Assembly (NCBI RefSeq): GCF_009914755.1
Contig: NC_060928.1
Origin: the human T2T-CHM13v2.0 reference genome, Homo sapiens
Strand: one strand, 5' to 3'
Length of the DNA: 64,000 nt
The position numbers and the translations under genes are program-made. The notes beneath the pieces are model-generated. The model worked only from the letters and a program-made list of their open reading frames with translations, ran no database searches and was not told where the DNA came from. Positions within the stretch are counted from its first letter, which is position 1, and each line of letters begins with the position of its first letter. Positions 38,928-61,868 of this stretch are shown here, piece by piece.

Positions 38928-40729
38928 TTATTTATGTTATATTAACTCTAATAATCACTATGCCACTTTCTGTTGTAATTCTTTAGGCACTTCTTCTTTG
39001 TATGTTTTTAATTAGCATGTAGTTATATAGTTATGTATTTACGTTTAGATATACCTCCAAGTAGCCAATATTCTACATGAAGTGATAAAGGATTTATTTA
39101 TCCCTGAAATTATGAAAAGTCTGCCTTGTTTTTTCTTTCTTGCATTGTGCTACAGTACACACATACACGGACACACGAATGCACACACATGCACACTGGG
39201 TTCTGCTAATTATCATTTCCTTAGTTCCATATCATCCCCCAACCCCTAAGCCACCTGTGTCCATACCAGTCTTCCCACTGCCTACCAGCCCCATGTCAGA
39301 TGACCTCCATCAGTAGTATCTCCATTTATGGTGTCTCGCCTTTCTGACACATAGTAACAAGTGAGGTGTTAAGACTAACAAGAGAAAGAAGGCATTATTC
39401 TTATCTGGCTAGAAAGAAAACAATCAGCAACTTGTCTTTTATTTAAGGGAAGAAGGCTTCACTCTACTATATTTTCAAGATATTCCAAAACTGCAACAGA
39501 CCCTTTCAATTATTTTACTTTCATCTATTACCAAAAAGGCCAACTTTTAGATTGAGGCAATGAAAACTCAGAAACTTTTTTGGAATGACCTTCAGATTTG
39601 AGATGACCACTGTTTCAACAATATTTCAGTTATAATTCTTTCTCTATATTCATTTAGGGAAATTTGATTCTGAAAAATACAAATAGCTTCCTTTCTCCTG
39701 AGCTAGGACTGTATTTAGAAGGGAATAAATTGTAGATTTTATTAAAATTTGATCACATTTTCTTTTTTTGTGCTACGACACAGTAGCAATGTAGATTGAA
39801 GGCTTTTACATGTATTTTTAAAATTGCCATAGAGAATTATTTGTATTAATCATAGATTTCCAAGGCTGCAAAAGCTAAATAGTAAAGCATATAATAATGG
39901 TAGCGTTAATTTGAAAAAAAATTCCAGCTAGCAAAACATGAGTCTAGATGTAGATATCATGTTCAAAAATCACAAAGCAGATTGCCAGCAAAAAATTGAA
40001 CCAAGTTTTTCCCCTTCAGAAAACTAGCTTTATTTAAAAAAATTTCCTAATATTTAAATTGATTCACACGTTTATAACTATACAAGGGTTTCCTTGTTTC
40101 ATCAAAGAAATAAGTATGAATGAGCAGAATGTTTTAGTATAAAAGTTTACAAAGTTTATTCACACTCGGAACAAAGGAATAAGTAGGAAAAAAAGAGCAA
40201 CTAAAAACAAATGAATTCTTTTCCCCATCCCTCTCGTTTGTCTCCAATCAGTTAAATCCTTTTAATGATATATCATAAGTAGCTTCATGCTTTAGTTCAC
40301 ATTGACGATATTCTTATATCTACATCATTAATAATCAAAATAGTCTTTCTGTCTTTAGTTTTGCTGTCTCTAAGTCAGAACTCAATACTGTTGCTCTAAA
40401 ATACAAATGTTAAGATGATTCTTCAGGAGCTTCTCATCACCTGTACTATAATGCTACTAGCATGAGAGCACCCACCTAGCCTTCTTATCTCAAGTCCTGC
40501 CCTGCCACTCTGTACATATATCCCCTCTTTAATTCACCCTTAGACAGAGACAGAGAGGGCCACGCATCTTGCCTTTTCCTGAATTAATATGTGGTTTTTG
40601 CCCCATGCTTTAGCACATGTGAATCCATTTGTCCAGCATGCCTTTGCTCACCTGTGTACAAGAAGAGCTACATAACAGATCAAAAGGAACATCAAAGGCG
40701 CTGGTTCTTAGAGTCTCATGTCCATTCCT

Positions 40730-41143
40730 CCAATTCTCGCCACTTCTGGATGCACTGTTTCTTATGAGCTTCCTTAAATATGCTGTGCCTTTTTGCTTTC
40801 TGCGTATGGGCATCTCCAGTGCCAAAGTAAGAGGAGATTTCTGCAGAATTTCAGGAAGTTAATATCCTAGTGGCAGCTCTCAGACAATGGGAGACAGGAG
40901 CTAATGGCTGTTTCTTCGTTTTGTCCTTCAGGCTGATAATCCAGAAAACCAATCTGCACAATGCTTGAGAAGGTGCAGAGAATTAGAGCCCTCATTGCCC
41001 TCAATGCAGTACCTTTATATTGGCTTTTTCTCCTTATTCATCACATGCTCCTGTTTCCCGAGATTGCCACCCACATATACTACTTGCACCCTACACTATA
41101 TTTCAGGCTCTTCCTTCAGGATAATGAAACCAAGCTAAAGGCA
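40730..41143 (+). mobile_element. LTR16-like ERVL solo LTR
   Basis: caatgggagacaggagc...gagccctcattgccc...ttatattggctttttctcc...tactacttgcaccc...tcaggctcttcc...aaaccaagctaaaggca matches LTR16 motifs. Left boundary approximate. Confidence 0.7.
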
Positions 41144-57512: not shown

Positions 57513-60285
57513 CAGAGGATGATTAAATTATTATGTGCTTATTGGGTGCTCAATTGGGTGTTCAGCATGACAAGTATCATAACCACCATAATCATCCTGG
57601 CTTTCTCTTTCATCCACCATCTCTGTCTCTCTCTCTTTTCCCTCCTACTTCCTAGGCTGCTGGGCACACTGCCATTGACCTCTGCTTGACATCTCCTTCC
57701 TCCCCCTGTCAGCAGCCTTGCTCAGACATCAACCACCAGTGTTTGCATGTCCCCATGGCAAGAACAAGGGGGAAGGGAGTAGGAGGGAAAATTAGTAAGG
57801 ACAAGGGAAGGTGGATGAATGAATTCATTTTTAATATAATGCTACATGAAAAGAAATGCCAGAAAGTAACATTCTGAAAATCACTGGTAAAAGCATCCCC
57901 AAAGTCTACCTGATATGGACATTTAAATTCATTAAAAATTCTGAGTTTAAGAAAACAGCTAAGAGGTTGAGAAATCAGAGTTGGCTGCCCAACTTACAAT
58001 TCTCCTTGCTGACCAGCATCTTTTGGCTGCCTCTCAAAATAACAGGATAAGGCACACAAAACTGAATTCTTCACTTGGATTAAATCTGAATCTTCCTTCT
58101 CTTATTCCTTTGCTTATAAAATATCTTCCTAGGCTTGAGACAGTCTAGAGACCACCTGAGAACACTGAATGTTCCTTTTGAGTATCCAGTAGCATAACTC
58201 ACATTGTCAACAAGGCCTTACTTACGTGTGCTGAACATTTTTATATTTTTGTATCCTTTATCACAAACCAAACACTGCTTAGTTATAAAATATATGTGTA
58301 AGTCAACATAATTTTTTTTGTCAAAGCAAAGATTTTTCTCCAAAATATAGCTACAGAAGAAAAGGGGCTTATAACAAGTGTATAGTACACATTCAGAAAC
58401 ATTTTGTTTCATGGATGTTTCAGTAAATGCTTCATTTCTATGTAGGAGGTATAAGATTCCTGCTAAAAATACATTCCCTTCCCTGAATATTCACAATAGC
58501 TTGCCAAAAATTCTCACAAATGAATAAAGACAGAACTGATTAACTGTATTAAGTGTCCTACTTAATACAATAATAATTCAGGTTTTAAATAATTTCAACA
58601 TCAGTTCATTATATTAATTAATCTCATAAAAACCTCCCAATTAATGTACTATGTATAAATTTTATCAAGTACTTTGATGAATTAAGAGGAAGGTAAAGGT
58701 TTTCATCAATATCTGCAATAATATTATTAAATTGGGCTAAAAGGAACCAAGACAAATGAAGATATATAAGAAAACTAATCATTATTTTAGACTAAAACAG
58801 GAAAAGAACATAGTTATCTAGGACACTGTCTCCTTAGTTTTTAATGTTTCTTCCCCAGATGGGTTTGCACATCTTTTGCCTGAAAAAAGAACTTATTTCC
58901 ACCACACAAGTTACATTAAATACGTCTTTTAGCTCCTAGGGAGCTGAAAGGCAAGTCCAAAATGAACTTTTTTATTCGTTATGTCATGAAACTATAACAC
59001 TGCATTATTAATACACCTCTAATCAATAAAGCCTAAAAATCCATTCCCAAGAGACCCAGATTTCTCTACCAGTTCTAGTTGTACTAGTTATTCTCAGCGG
59101 TAAGTTTTCCTAGTTCTTAATATTAAAATGAGAGGTCCAGAGGCTCTAGGTGGTGGAGGGGTTGCTAGCTAAAAGGAGGGTGTCCTACAGAAAGGGACAG
59201 AGTCTCCATGAGCAATGCTGGATGGTACCTGTGGTCCAGTTCTTGGCACATGGTGAGTGCTGCCTAAGTCTTGGTGCCCTAGACCTGCAGCAGCAATCGG
59301 CGGGGAAAGGACCATGACTTTGGTGACAAAAGTGATGGCAGAAGAGTGGAAAGAGGTATGAGTGATGACTAAGGACAAAGAAACAAGGGTAGAAGGACAA
59401 TTCCAGCAGCAGCCTATCCGAATAACAAAATCCTTATCTCAGGAAAACCATCTCTGCTATGAATACATACACACACATATATTCATCAGGTATCAATTTA
59501 ATTACTGATTGGAACACTGTAAACTTGTTCAAAATAGAGGTTATTATTCAGTATCTTCAGCTGTCCGGATTCACCATTTTATAGCATGCTCTCTGACATT
59601 AGTGAGAATGAATTGTACTCTACATATTTAGGTAATGGTTTGGTATACAGCTGCTATTAACGATTTGTGTGCTATGCAATATTTGTGGTCTCCTGTCACC
59701 CACCTCAGGAGACACAACTGATGTAAGTGAGACAGCTCAGCATATCCTATGGAAAAATCTCTTATTAAATAAAGGTCAATGATTAAGTAGTATAGTCATT
59801 GAATTAATTTGTTTTCCTTAAGAGGAGCTCTCCTCAGGTCAAAATTAAAGTCAGGGATAGATAAGTCTCTCATACGGTTCCCCCAGTGTGAGAGGAGCAA
59901 GCTGTTGGTTTCCTTTGGTGGCTTTTTTCTTGTCTCAGAAGAATAAATTAATAAATTCTGCATAGCTGTGATTTTGTGTGACAAAAATGAAGAACCTGTG
60001 CCTCTGTTTACAAAGCAATGCAATGGGAATCACCTCCCCTGGTGTCTCTTCCCCATCACCACCACTTTGCCCGCTGAAATGTTCTTAACCCCACCCACCA
60101 TAAAAGGTGATGATAAATTGTTGCTTCAAACTCATGCTGATTGAAATTTTCCAGCTATTTTTAAATAACCCCCACTACTGGATTTCTTGCTTCTATGTTA
60201 TATGACAATGCTTCTTTCAGGTGAAAATGTCCTGGAAACAAGTAATTTTTACCTGGCTACCTTTTTTTTTTTTTTTTTTTTTTTT

Positions 60286-60590
60286 ATAAAGAAAGAAGTT
60301 TAATTGACTCACAGTTCTGCATAGCTGAGGAGGCCTCAGGAAACTTACAATCATAGCAGAAGGGGAAGGGGAAGCAAGGCACACCTCACATGGCAGGAGA
60401 AAGAGAGAGCAAAAGGAAGTGCCATGATTTTAAACCATTAGATCTTATGAGAACTCATTCACTATCATGAGAACAGCATGGAGAAACTACCCCCATGATC
60501 CAATCACCTCCCATAAGGTCCCTCCCTCAACACATGGGGGTTACAATTCAAGATGAGATTTGGGTGGGGACACAAAGCCAAACCGTATCA
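60286..60590 (-). mobile_element. THE1 (THE1D-like)/MSTA MaLR LTR, ending at its poly(A) site with U5 absent
   Basis: Reverse complement starts TGATACGGTTTGGCTTTGTGTCCCCACCCAAATCTCATCTTGAATTGTAA and ends GAGTCAATTAAACTTCTTTCTTTAT followed by poly(A). Confidence 0.9.
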
Positions 60591-60676
60591 CTATGGATGG
60601 TAGTATCAGGGTGCACATACATCTTTTTTTTTTTTCTCTCTGATTTTCTTTTTTTATTTAAATTCTTTTTTTTTAA

Positions 60677-60741
60677 ATTATACTTTAAGTTTTAGGGTAC
60701 ATGTGCACATTGTGCAGGTTAGTTACATATGTATACACGTG
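60677..60741 (-). mobile_element. L1PA2/L1HS pre-Ta-type 3' terminal 65 bp
   Basis: Reverse complement is CACGTGTATACATATGTAACTAACCTGCACAATGTGCACATGTACCCTAAAACTTAAAGTATAAT. Confidence 0.9.
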
Positions 60742-61099
60742 ACCTGGCTACCTTTAAAGATGGATATTGACTCCTCCAAAATGCTTTCACTTGAAAAAAA
60801 AAAGAAGAAAAAAACCTCAAAAATGAGAAGGGCTTTCCGACTTGAGGAAAGCAAATCTTTTTAACTTGCACTAGGAACATCACGACATTTTCTTGCCTCT
60901 TAGATGGTTTGTATTTTGGATGCTTCTGAAGAGAAACAAAGACATATAGAATTTAAACATTATCTGTGTTTATTTGTAGAATACTTATTTTTTGTATTTT
61001 GTTTTTTAAATGAGTATGTCTGATATCTCATACATTTAGAATATTTGTAATAGAATAGCAAATTTCCACCATGGAATCAGTGGAGAGCTATGCAATTTA

Positions 61100-61240
61100 A
61101 CAACTGCAAAGAATCTTAGAGATCCTTAGAGTAACACATCCTCTTATTTACAAATGGGGAAACAGGGTATACGAGTAGAAGTGACTTGCCTAATCCATAA
61201 GCTAGGGGTACAACAGGGTCATTAGGGCCATCCTGTTCAA
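61100..61240 (-). mobile_element. MIR/MIR3
   Basis: cttagagatccttagagtaacacatcctcttatttacaaatggggaaacaggg...agtgacttgcctaa. Confidence 0.65.
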
Positions 61241-61551: not shown

Positions 61552-61553
<2 letters not shown>

Positions 61554-61586
<33 letters not shown>

Positions 61587-61868
61587 GAGACGGGATCTCA
61601 CTCTGTTGCCAGGCTGGAGTGCAGTGGCACAATCTTGGCTCACTGCAACCTCCGACTCCTTGGTTGTTCAAGTGATTCTCTTGCCTCAGCCTCCCAAATA
61701 GCTGAGATTACAGGCACGCGCCACCAGGCCCAGCTAATTTTTGTATTTTTAGTAGAGACAGCGTTTCACCATGTTGGCCAGGATGGTCTCGATCTCCTGA
61801 CCTCGTGATCCACCCACCTCAGCCTTCCAAAGTGCTGGGATTACAGGCGTGAGCCACCGCGCCCGGCC
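61554..61868 (-). mobile_element. AluSc with (TTG)12 microsatellite tail
   Basis: ctgttgccaggctgg and ggccaggatggtctcgatctc. Degenerate TSD tct(cac/tgt)agtttt. Confidence 0.93.

What the first reader, a model, noticed from the sequence alone, without database searches (positions are those of the whole stretch)
60251..60755. Young L1 3' transduction that carried a THE1 LTR polyadenylated at its own signal
Seen: a perfect 14-bp TSD (acctggctaccttt) brackets 477 bp. On the minus strand it reads: 65 bp of L1 3' end, an A-rich region, 33 bp of unique DNA (GATGTATGTGCACCCTGATACTACCATCCATAG), then a THE1 LTR from its first base TGATAC... to 13 nt past its ATTAAA, then A24. The LTR's U5 is missing exactly at the poly(A) site, and the target matches the L1 endonuclease consensus (cttt/aa). 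Known: L1 often reads through its weak poly(A) signal and copies 3' flanks. The CACAATGTGCAC and CTTAAAGTATAA variants point to L1PA2 or pre-Ta L1HS (from recalled consensus). Inference: an old, immobile MaLR LTR was moved here recently by L1, bringing its U3 promoter/enhancer part to a new locus. A repeat annotation would show this as unrelated adjacent repeats.
Basis: partly seen in the sequence, partly recalled or inferred. Interest (0 to 1): 0.8.

Follow-up and report, generated by a model that had tools for sequence, protein, structure and literature searches.

The report
L1 insertion carrying a copied LTR
A short L1 retrotransposon insertion in the large intron of the SNCA gene dragged along a 338-base piece of chromosome 12 that holds most of an old THE1-type LTR, which is a clean but ordinary example of a well-known copying mechanism.

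Summary
A perfect 14-nt target-site duplication (60251-60264, 60742-60755) brackets 477 nt. On the minus strand these read: 65 nt of L1 3' end, a 53-nt impure A-rich tract, 33 nt of unique DNA, 305 nt of a THE1-type LTR, then a pure A run.

In this assembly the 338-nt non-L1 part has one other full-length match, chr12:74,548,926-74,549,263, with 5 mismatches and no indels. There the LTR is complete (359 nt, CATAG duplication). The SNCA copy stops 13-16 nt after the LTR's ATTAAA and lacks the last ~51-54 nt.

No L1 lies at chr12. Homology starts exactly at a TTT/AA site, which fits the empty site of a donor L1 that is lost or not fixed.

The 65-nt tail is identical to L1 copies with the GAG trinucleotide (L1PA2 or older), none with ACA or ACG. 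Divergence gives roughly 7-15 Myr with wide error. That is young next to the LTR, but probably not human-specific.

No evidence bears on promoter or enhancer use of the moved LTR. The insertion does form the last 146 nt of an annotated alternative SNCA exon.

The mechanism is textbook, so interest is modest.

The parts
60742..60755 (-). Target-site duplication, the copy at the 5' end of the insertion in L1 sense
   Evidence: Exact 14-nt repeat (family D5; 2 matches, 0.03 expected).
60677..60741 (-). 5'-truncated L1 3' end, 65 nt, of L1PA2-type
   Evidence: It is identical (65 of 65) to 17 other genomic L1 tails among the 40 scored. In one search every informative copy carries GAG, and none carries ACA or ACG. 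PMC7026601 gives the meaning of the trinucleotide.
60624..60676 (-). Internal A-rich tract, read as the genomically encoded tail of the donor L1. It holds AATAAA at 60658-60653 and a 15-nt tandem duplication.
   Evidence: 13 of 53 bases are non-A, against 0 of 24 in the terminal run. Tandem Repeats Finder reports period 15 at 60651-60679. A 30-nt stretch of it (60636-60665) is unique in the genome at up to 2 mismatches.
60591..60623 (-). 33 nt of unique chr12 flank, the first part of the transduced sequence
   Evidence: It matches L002 1501-1533 with 1 mismatch. Only chr12 and this site cover it among the 40 scored hits.
60286..60590 (-). THE1-type MaLR LTR from its first base to the cleavage site (U3 and R; U5 absent)
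   Evidence: It has 4 mismatches to the chr12 LTR. Other family copies are 83-86% identical and run about 50 nt further.
60299..60304 (-). ATTAAA poly(A) signal of the LTR, 13-16 nt before the A run
   Evidence: One search gives the position. The hexamer is present in 6 of 6 other family copies, while the present chr12 copy reads ATTAAC.
60265..60285 (-). Terminal poly(A) tail, 21 A outside the duplication; the pure run is 24 A
   Evidence: T24 at 60262-60285 with 100% matches.
60251..60264 (-). Target-site duplication, the copy after the poly(A) tail
60596..60925 (-). Annotated alternative SNCA exon (from the hub's gene table). Its last 146 nt (60741-60596) are insertion sequence.
   Evidence: The coordinates come from the hub's table, not from a call. 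One search shows the acceptor ...ttctcttcag just before 60925, no GT after 60596, and an in-frame stop inside the L1 tail if the exon is spliced from exon 4. The pre-insertion part, 60756-60990, is single-copy.

Best explanation
This is a single L1 retrotransposition event by target-primed reverse transcription, and it carried a 3' transduction.

A donor L1 of L1PA2 type once sat on chr12 (T2T about 74,548,924, + strand), directly upstream of 33 nt of unique DNA and a solo THE1-type LTR. Transcription ran past the donor's own A-rich end and through the 33 nt and the LTR. The transcript was cleaved and polyadenylated 13-16 nt after the LTR's ATTAAA.

L1 endonuclease nicked the SNCA intron at CCTTT/AAAG. 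Reverse transcription started on the new poly(A) tail and stopped 65 nt into the L1 body, which is severe 5' truncation. Repair left a 14-nt target-site duplication.

What is shown: the anatomy, the source locus, the direction of copying, and the absence of an L1 at the source in this assembly.

What is inferred: that a donor L1 was once present at chr12 and was lost before fixation or still segregates; the L1PA2-era age; and any effect on SNCA.
For: TPRT hallmarks:
- There is an exact 14-nt duplication, a pure A run of 24, a target that fits the endonuclease consensus (consensus from PMC7026601), and a 65-nt L1 tail identical to other genomic copies.

Source locus:
- Of the 40 hits scored (9,915 candidates), only this site and chr12 cover all 338 nt. 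The other 38 are 83-86% identical and end at query position 298-322.
- The alignment has 5 mismatches and 0 indels.

Direction of copying:
- The chr12 LTR is complete (L002 1534-1892) and flanked by CATAG on both sides. The SNCA copy ends in poly(A) after ATTAAA and lacks the last ~51-54 nt, which the other copies also keep.

Donor position:
- Homology begins exactly at ...CAGCTTT/AAGATG. A TTT/AA context makes up only 0.27% of positions in that locus.

The internal tail was genomic, not a fresh poly(A):
- 13 of 53 bases are non-A, against 0 of 24 in the terminal tail of the same insertion.

Read-through is plausible:
- The L1 end here reads GTATAAT followed by TT and A9, with no AATAAA or ATTAAA at the usual place. 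Most identical tails continue AATAAA... or A-runs.

Age:
- 5 differences in 338 nt give 7.4 Myr (2.4-17.3) at 1e-9 per site per year, or 14.8 Myr (4.8-34.5) at 0.5e-9. The rates are assumed from general knowledge.
- All 28 informative tails are of GAG type. PMC7026601 reads GAG as L1PA2 or older.
Against: - No donor L1 exists at chr12 in this assembly. One search gave best local scores of 23-29, against 130 for the positive control.
- No other locus carries the same A-rich tail.
- No sibling insertion carries chr12 flank sequence. The donor is therefore inferred, not seen.
- All 4 differences that can be polarised lie on the chr12 lineage and none on the SNCA copy. For a named lineage P = 0.0625, which is not significant but is lopsided.
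- The present chr12 copy reads ATTAAC, so the signal that was used is no longer in the source. It must have been there at the time; 6 of 6 relatives have it.
- The 65-nt tail does not reach the diagnostic trinucleotide, so the subfamily is assigned only by association.
- The searches score only 40 candidates each and skip very common words, so short or truncated siblings could have been missed.
Confidence: 0.9

Rival explanations
1. The element is a template-switch chimera. L1 reverse transcriptase started on a polyadenylated chr12 transcript that ended in the LTR, reached its 5' end 33 nt upstream of the LTR, and jumped to the poly(A) tail of an L1 mRNA. It copied 65 nt of that before the insertion was completed. 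No donor L1 at chr12 is then needed.
For: No L1 lies at chr12 in this assembly. The order of the parts, with L1 on the 5' side and other RNA on the 3' side within one duplication, is what such a chimera would give.
Against: - The internal A tract is impure (13 of 53 non-A) and holds a 15-nt tandem duplication, while the terminal tail of the same age is pure. An mRNA poly(A) tail should have been pure.
- The chr12 boundary falls exactly on a TTT/AA endonuclease-type site, a context found at 0.27% of positions. A transcription start has no reason to sit there.
Confidence: 0.05
2. The copying took two steps. The chr12 donor first produced a full-length L1 offspring that already carried the spacer and LTR. 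That intermediate, not chr12 itself, was the template for the SNCA copy, re-using the LTR's ATTAAA.
For: All 4 polarised differences lie on the chr12 lineage, so the SNCA copy does not look like a recent copy of today's chr12 sequence. Chains of transductions are known (recalled, not checked here).
Against: No third locus with the spacer and LTR is among the 40 scored hits or. None with the A-rich tail turns up. The 4:0 split is not significant.
Confidence: 0.04
3. The element arose without L1 machinery: either a DNA-level patch captured at a double-strand break, or two independent insertions that happen to lie side by side.
For: None specific. It is considered because the L1 part is only 65 nt.
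Against: One exact 14-nt duplication brackets all the parts. The copy ends in poly(A) 13-16 nt after a poly(A) hexamer. The target fits the endonuclease consensus. There is no second duplication inside the element.
Confidence: 0.01

Closest known systems
L1-mediated 3' transduction (named in PMC7026601, passage; the original descriptions by Moran 1999, Goodier 2000 and Pickeral 2000 are recalled and were not read here)
   Same: The L1 3' end and its own tail are followed by non-L1 genomic sequence and a second poly(A), all inside one target-site duplication. The extra sequence maps to a single other locus. A downstream poly(A) signal was used.
   Different: The source L1 is absent from the source locus in this assembly, leaving an empty site. 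The L1 part is cut down to 65 nt, so the event is close to an 'orphan' transduction. The downstream signal that was used belongs to another, much older retroelement.
Sense-oriented LTR in a gene intron acting through its polyadenylation signal (van de Lagemaat et al. 2006, PMC1794541; passages)
   Same: The moved LTR lies in the same orientation as SNCA. Its ATTAAA demonstrably worked once, in the donor transcript.
   Different: The LTR arrived by L1, not by its own integration, and it lacks U5. The annotated SNCA exon ends at 60596, before the LTR, and not at the LTR's cleavage site near 60286.
Chimeric retrocopies made by template switching of L1 reverse transcriptase (recalled: Buzdin and colleagues; not read here)
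   Same: Two unrelated transcripts' sequences lie head to tail within one duplication, with one terminal poly(A).
   Different: The internal junction here is a degenerate, genomically encoded A-rich tail, and the boundary in the source is an endonuclease-type site.

Membership tests
L1 insertion by target-primed reverse transcription | Flanking target-site duplication | tested here: met
   Exact 14 nt, found twice in the window against 0.03 expected.
L1 insertion by target-primed reverse transcription | Target resembling the endonuclease consensus 5'-TTTTT/AA | tested here: met
   The + strand reads CCTTT/AAAG at the junction. The consensus is from PMC7026601.
L1 insertion by target-primed reverse transcription | 3' poly(A) tail and frequent 5' truncation | tested here: met
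   There is a pure run of 24 A. Only the last 65 nt of L1 are present.
L1 3' transduction | Non-L1 sequence between the L1's own tail and the terminal poly(A), inside the duplication | tested here: met
   338 nt at 60623-60286.
L1 3' transduction | The extra sequence maps to one other locus, where it continues beyond the cleavage point | tested here: met
   chr12:74,548,926-74,549,263 matches at 333 of 338. The LTR runs on about 51-54 nt and the flanks are unique.
L1 3' transduction | A poly(A) signal shortly before the end of the transduced sequence | tested here: met
   ATTAAA at 60304-60299, with the A run 13-16 nt later.
L1 3' transduction | A source L1 directly upstream of the transduced sequence at the source locus | tested here: not met
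   There is no L1 sequence within about 1.5 kb upstream or 1.8 kb downstream in this assembly. Only an endonuclease-type TTT/AA junction marks the start of homology. An empty or lost donor site is compatible with the family, but the donor itself is not seen.
L1PA2 subfamily | GAG rather than ACG or ACA at the 3'UTR trinucleotide (PMC7026601) | not testable with these tools
   The 65-nt remnant does not reach that site.

The indirect evidence comes from the 30 loci examined. A regex read GAG in 20. In 8 more GAG is visible by eye, where the regex failed on neighbouring differences. One locus is this element itself and one is too short. None carries ACA or ACG.

The sample is the 40 scored of 420 candidates, so it is not random.
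THE1-type MaLR LTR | High-copy LTR of about 350-360 nt with a short flanking duplication | tested here: met
   The searches found 9,915 and 12,290 first-look candidates. Scored copies are 83-86% identical over about 358 nt. The chr12 copy is 359 nt, starts with TG, and is flanked by CATAG.
THE1-type MaLR LTR | Match to a curated THE1 model (Dfam or Repbase) | not testable with these tools
No repeat library is available here. [quoted passage not shown]
SNCA intron 4 CT-rich haplotype region | Position hg38 chr4:89821175-89821400 / hg19 90742331-90742559 | tested here: not met
   Searches give these coordinates. Anchored on the TTG repeat, the insertion lies near hg19 chr4:90.7121-90.7126 Mb, about 30 kb away.

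The most novel reading that the evidence does not exclude
The insertion may have been co-opted as the end of a hominid-specific SNCA isoform.

The annotated alternative exon (60925-60596, minus strand) has a good acceptor. SNCA exon 4 ends in phase 0 (...GGC AAG|gt). If exon 4 is spliced to this exon, the frame stays open for 68 codons and stops at a TAA inside the L1 tail. The transcript then ends in the transduced chr12 spacer.

The product would keep residues 1-102 of alpha-synuclein and replace the acidic C-terminus, the part said to protect against aggregation (10.1101/2025.10.13.682119, passages).

The exon comes from the hub's table. Which upstream exon it joins, whether it is the rare 'novel 3' exon in intron 4' of Tseng et al. 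2019 (0-0.3% of reads), and whether it is translated are all unknown.
Probability: 0.1. Interest if true: 0.55.

Novelty: new member of a known kind. Interest (0 to 1): 0.27.

Why it matters
As a mechanism it adds nothing new, since L1 3' transduction is textbook. Its value is as a fully resolved example. The source locus, the direction of copying, the cleavage site and an empty donor site can all be read from one assembly.

The SNCA copy also acts as a dated snapshot of the chr12 LTR. It keeps the ATTAAA that the source has since lost.

It shows how an L1 can place an old LTR, with a poly(A) signal that demonstrably worked, in sense orientation inside a gene. Such LTRs are otherwise depleted in that position (PMC1794541).

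The practical point for SNCA work is that part of an annotated alternative terminal exon in intron 4 is insertion sequence. That includes its possible stop codon and its 3' end. The exon is therefore probably restricted to apes, and primers or probes placed there touch repeat sequence.

Tried and rejected
1. Same as the disease-associated CT-rich haplotype region of SNCA intron 4? No. That region lies about 30 kb away.

2. Serial transduction, with the internal A-rich tract holding a tag from a grandparent locus. A 30-nt stretch of it is unique in the genome at up to 2 mismatches. No other L1 tail shares it; the best match is 89% over A-rich sequence. Part of the tract is a 15-nt tandem duplication. 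This stays unresolved, and no grandparent was found.

3. Sibling insertions from the same donor. None is among the scored hits. Short truncated siblings could have been missed.

4. A spliced read-through from an L1 further upstream on chr12. This is rejected for this assembly, because no copy of the tail exists anywhere else.

5. Rfam families in 59800-61200: none.

6. Coordinates of the 'novel 3' exon in intron 4' (PB.1016.381) in Tseng et al. The one supplement held as text gives only abundances. Figures and other supplements could not be seen, so identity with the exon at 60596-60925 is open.

7. The state of a transcription-factor site in the LTR as a test of the promoter claim. This was dropped. 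The paper's text gives no motif letters, and the site I looked at is the same in chr12 and in most relatives.

8. Print searches:
- SNCA + intron 4 + LINE-1 gave 1 paper, not about this element.
- SNCA + transposable element + exonization gave 5 papers. I opened one, whose 'SNCA' hit was only the word 'SNCAD'; for the other four I saw only titles and abstract openings, which do not mention this element.
- CHM13 + transductions + L1PA2 gave 11 papers, 8 of them listed; I saw the listing only and opened none.
I found no description of this particular insertion. Large transduction catalogues may list it in supplements that I did not open.

Full report
**What is in the sequence**

Searches show the region on both strands. 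ACCTGGCTACCTTT occurs exactly twice in the 64-kb window, at 60251-60264 and 60742-60755 (family D5). With up to one mismatch the expected count was 0.03, and 0 of 100 shuffles reached two matches.

The 477 nt between the copies read as follows on the minus strand:
- 65 nt of L1 3' end (60741-60677)
- a 53-nt A-rich tract with 13 non-A bases (60676-60624)
- 33 nt of unique DNA (60623-60591)
- 305 nt of an LTR that starts TGATAC (60590-60286), with ATTAAA at 60304-60299
- 13 nt further on, an uninterrupted A run

The run is 24 A long. Its last three A belong to the duplication, and its first three could be templated. On the + strand the target reads CCTTT/AAAG. This fits the L1 endonuclease consensus 5'-TTTTT/AA quoted in PMC7026601 (passage).

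**The source locus**

I searched the assembly that holds the window (T2T-CHM13, handle G000) with 60286-60623. Of 40 hits scored out of 9,915 first-look candidates, only two cover all 338 nt: the site itself and chr12:74,548,926-74,549,263. The other 38 are 83-86% identical and end at query position 298-322, which is at or just past the first base of the LTR.

The chr12 alignment has 5 mismatches and no indel. At chr12 (locus L002) the 33 nt and the LTR are contiguous with unique flanks. The LTR is complete (L002 1534-1892, 359 nt) and is flanked on both sides by CATAG, the mark of its own original integration as a solo LTR.

The reverse search, with chr12 sequence plus flanks (40 scored of 12,290 candidates), shows the SNCA copy covering only query 60-402. 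Other family copies run on to about 452. The SNCA copy therefore lacks the last ~51-54 nt, and copying went from chr12 to chr4.

**The donor L1**

There is no L1 at chr12 in this assembly. A 665-nt L1 3' probe taken from a stored locus, and the 118-nt tail of this element, gave local scores of only 23-29 against 3.3-3.7 kb around the site. The same probe scored 130 against the 65-nt L1 tail in the window.

Homology with the SNCA copy starts exactly at ...CAGCTTT/AAGATG. A TTT/AA context makes up 0.27% of positions in that locus. I read this as the empty site of a donor L1 that never reached fixation or has not been sampled.

The internal A-rich tract supports a genomic donor. It is impure (13 of 53 non-A) and holds a 15-nt tandem duplication, whereas the terminal tail of the same insertion is pure (0 of 24). 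The internal tract was therefore copied from DNA and was not added to an mRNA.

That argues against the main rival, a template switch between a chr12 transcript and an L1 mRNA. So does the endonuclease-type boundary at chr12.

No second copy of the tract exists in the genome (up to 2 mismatches). No other L1 shares it. So no parent, grandparent or sibling could be found.

**Why the donor read through**

The L1 end here is GTATAAT followed by TT and nine A. It has no AATAAA or ATTAAA at the usual place. Most identical tails continue with AATAAA... or a plain A run. A weakened signal of its own would favour read-through. Whether the change predates the insertion cannot be told.

**Age and subfamily**

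The 65-nt tail is identical to 17 other genomic copies among the 40 scored of 420 candidates. I examined 30 loci:
- A regular expression read GAG at the diagnostic 3'UTR trinucleotide in 20.
- In 8 more GAG is visible, but the expression failed on neighbouring differences.
- One locus is this element itself.
- One is too short.
- None has ACA or ACG.

PMC7026601 (passages) states that ACA marks Ta, ACG marks pre-Ta, and GAG marks L1PA2 or older. It also states that L1PA2 amplified before the human-chimpanzee split. The remnant itself does not reach that site, and the sample is not random, so the assignment is by association.

Five differences in 338 nt give 7.4 Myr (95% range 2.4-17.3) at 1e-9 per site per year, or 14.8 Myr (4.8-34.5) at 0.5e-9. 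The rates are my assumption. The element is young beside the LTR family, whose copies differ by about 15%. PMC3836709 dates one THE1B copy to 40-75 Myr (passage). But it is probably not human-specific.

**A lopsided detail**

At the four LTR sites where the two copies differ, six other family copies carry the SNCA state (5 of 6, then 6 of 6 three times). All four polarisable changes therefore happened at chr12. One of them turned the ATTAAA that was used into ATTAAC.

The 4:0 split is not significant (P = 0.0625 for a named lineage). It is the only hint that an unseen intermediate copy might exist.

**Relation to SNCA**

The hub's table lists an alternative SNCA exon at 60596-60925 on the same strand as the insertion. 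One search shows a good acceptor (...ttctcttcag) before 60925 and no GT after 60596, so it looks like a terminal exon. Its last 146 nt are insertion sequence. Its first part is single-copy DNA.

I located SNCA exon 4 in a fetched stretch. It ends ...GGC AAG|gt in phase 0. As a check on the placement, reading on into the intron gives 13 more codons. That agrees with the 115-residue product described in 10.1101/2025.10.13.682119 (passages).

If exon 4 joins the alternative exon, the frame runs 68 codons to a TAA inside the L1 tail. Without the insertion a TAA would follow directly after the single target copy, so the insertion changes only the last few codons and the 3' end.

Tseng et al. 2019 (PMC6629766; passages) report one rare isoform with a novel 3' exon in intron 4. 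It makes up 0-0.3% of reads (supplement), and no coordinates are given. I cannot say that it is this exon.

The annotated end at 60596 is not at the LTR's cleavage site. It lies 57 nt after the AATAAA of the internal tract. What sets it is unknown.

**Not the CT-rich haplotype**

The polymorphic CT-rich region of SNCA intron 4 lies at hg38 chr4:89821175-89821400 (PMC11282088), which is hg19 90742331-90742559. The TTG repeat at 61552-61587 can be anchored to hg19 chr4:90713442. On that anchor the insertion lies near hg19 chr4:90.7121-90.7126 Mb, about 30 kb away.

**Comparison and verdict**

This is an L1 3' transduction in every tested respect but one: the source L1 is not seen at the source (see the membership table). 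It differs from the usual case in three ways:
- It is almost an orphan, with only 65 nt of L1.
- It used the poly(A) signal of another, far older retroelement.
- It placed that LTR in sense orientation inside a gene, a position in which such LTRs are depleted (PMC1794541, passages).

All of this lies within the known range of the mechanism. My print searches turned up no description of this particular insertion. For most of those papers I saw only the search listing, and genome-wide catalogues may list the insertion in supplements that I did not open.

I rate it a new member of a known kind. Confidence in the reading is 0.9 and interest is 0.27.

Noticed in passing
window 61552-61587: A perfect (TTG)12 repeat. 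By position it is the polymorphic triplet repeat that Tseng et al. 2019 report in SNCA intron 4 at hg19 chr4:90713442, with alleles of 9, 12 and 15 units. This assembly carries 12.
   Followed up: partly
window 40652-40989: This is the other alternative SNCA exon in the hub's table. With the offset taken from the TTG repeat, it falls on the 'novel 5' start site in intron 4' of Tseng et al. (hg19 chr4:90692548-90693045), to within 6 nt at one end.
   Followed up: partly
L002 1824-1829 (chr12 source LTR): The source LTR now reads ATTAAC where the SNCA copy and 6 of 6 other family copies read ATTAAA. The copy preserves a signal that the original has lost.
   Followed up: yes
L019 (G000:C8:30317572-30320685): An older-looking L1 tail ends in an A-rich tract that contains GAAAATCAGAGA, much like the GAAAATCAGAGAG in the internal tract here. 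This is probably a product of picking the best of 431 candidates, but it was not examined further.
   Followed up: no
L007 (G000:C15:72755749-72759051): In this family copy the LTR is interrupted right after the CTTTCTTT that follows ATTAAA. The interrupting sequence is a T-rich run followed by what looks like an Alu in antisense. That is the same spot where the SNCA copy was cleaved.
   Followed up: no
L002 2130-2430 and 1-720: The chr12 locus holds an Alu-like element with an (AAAAT)n tail downstream of the LTR. Further upstream is a stretch that reads like a decayed coding sequence. Neither was analysed.
   Followed up: no
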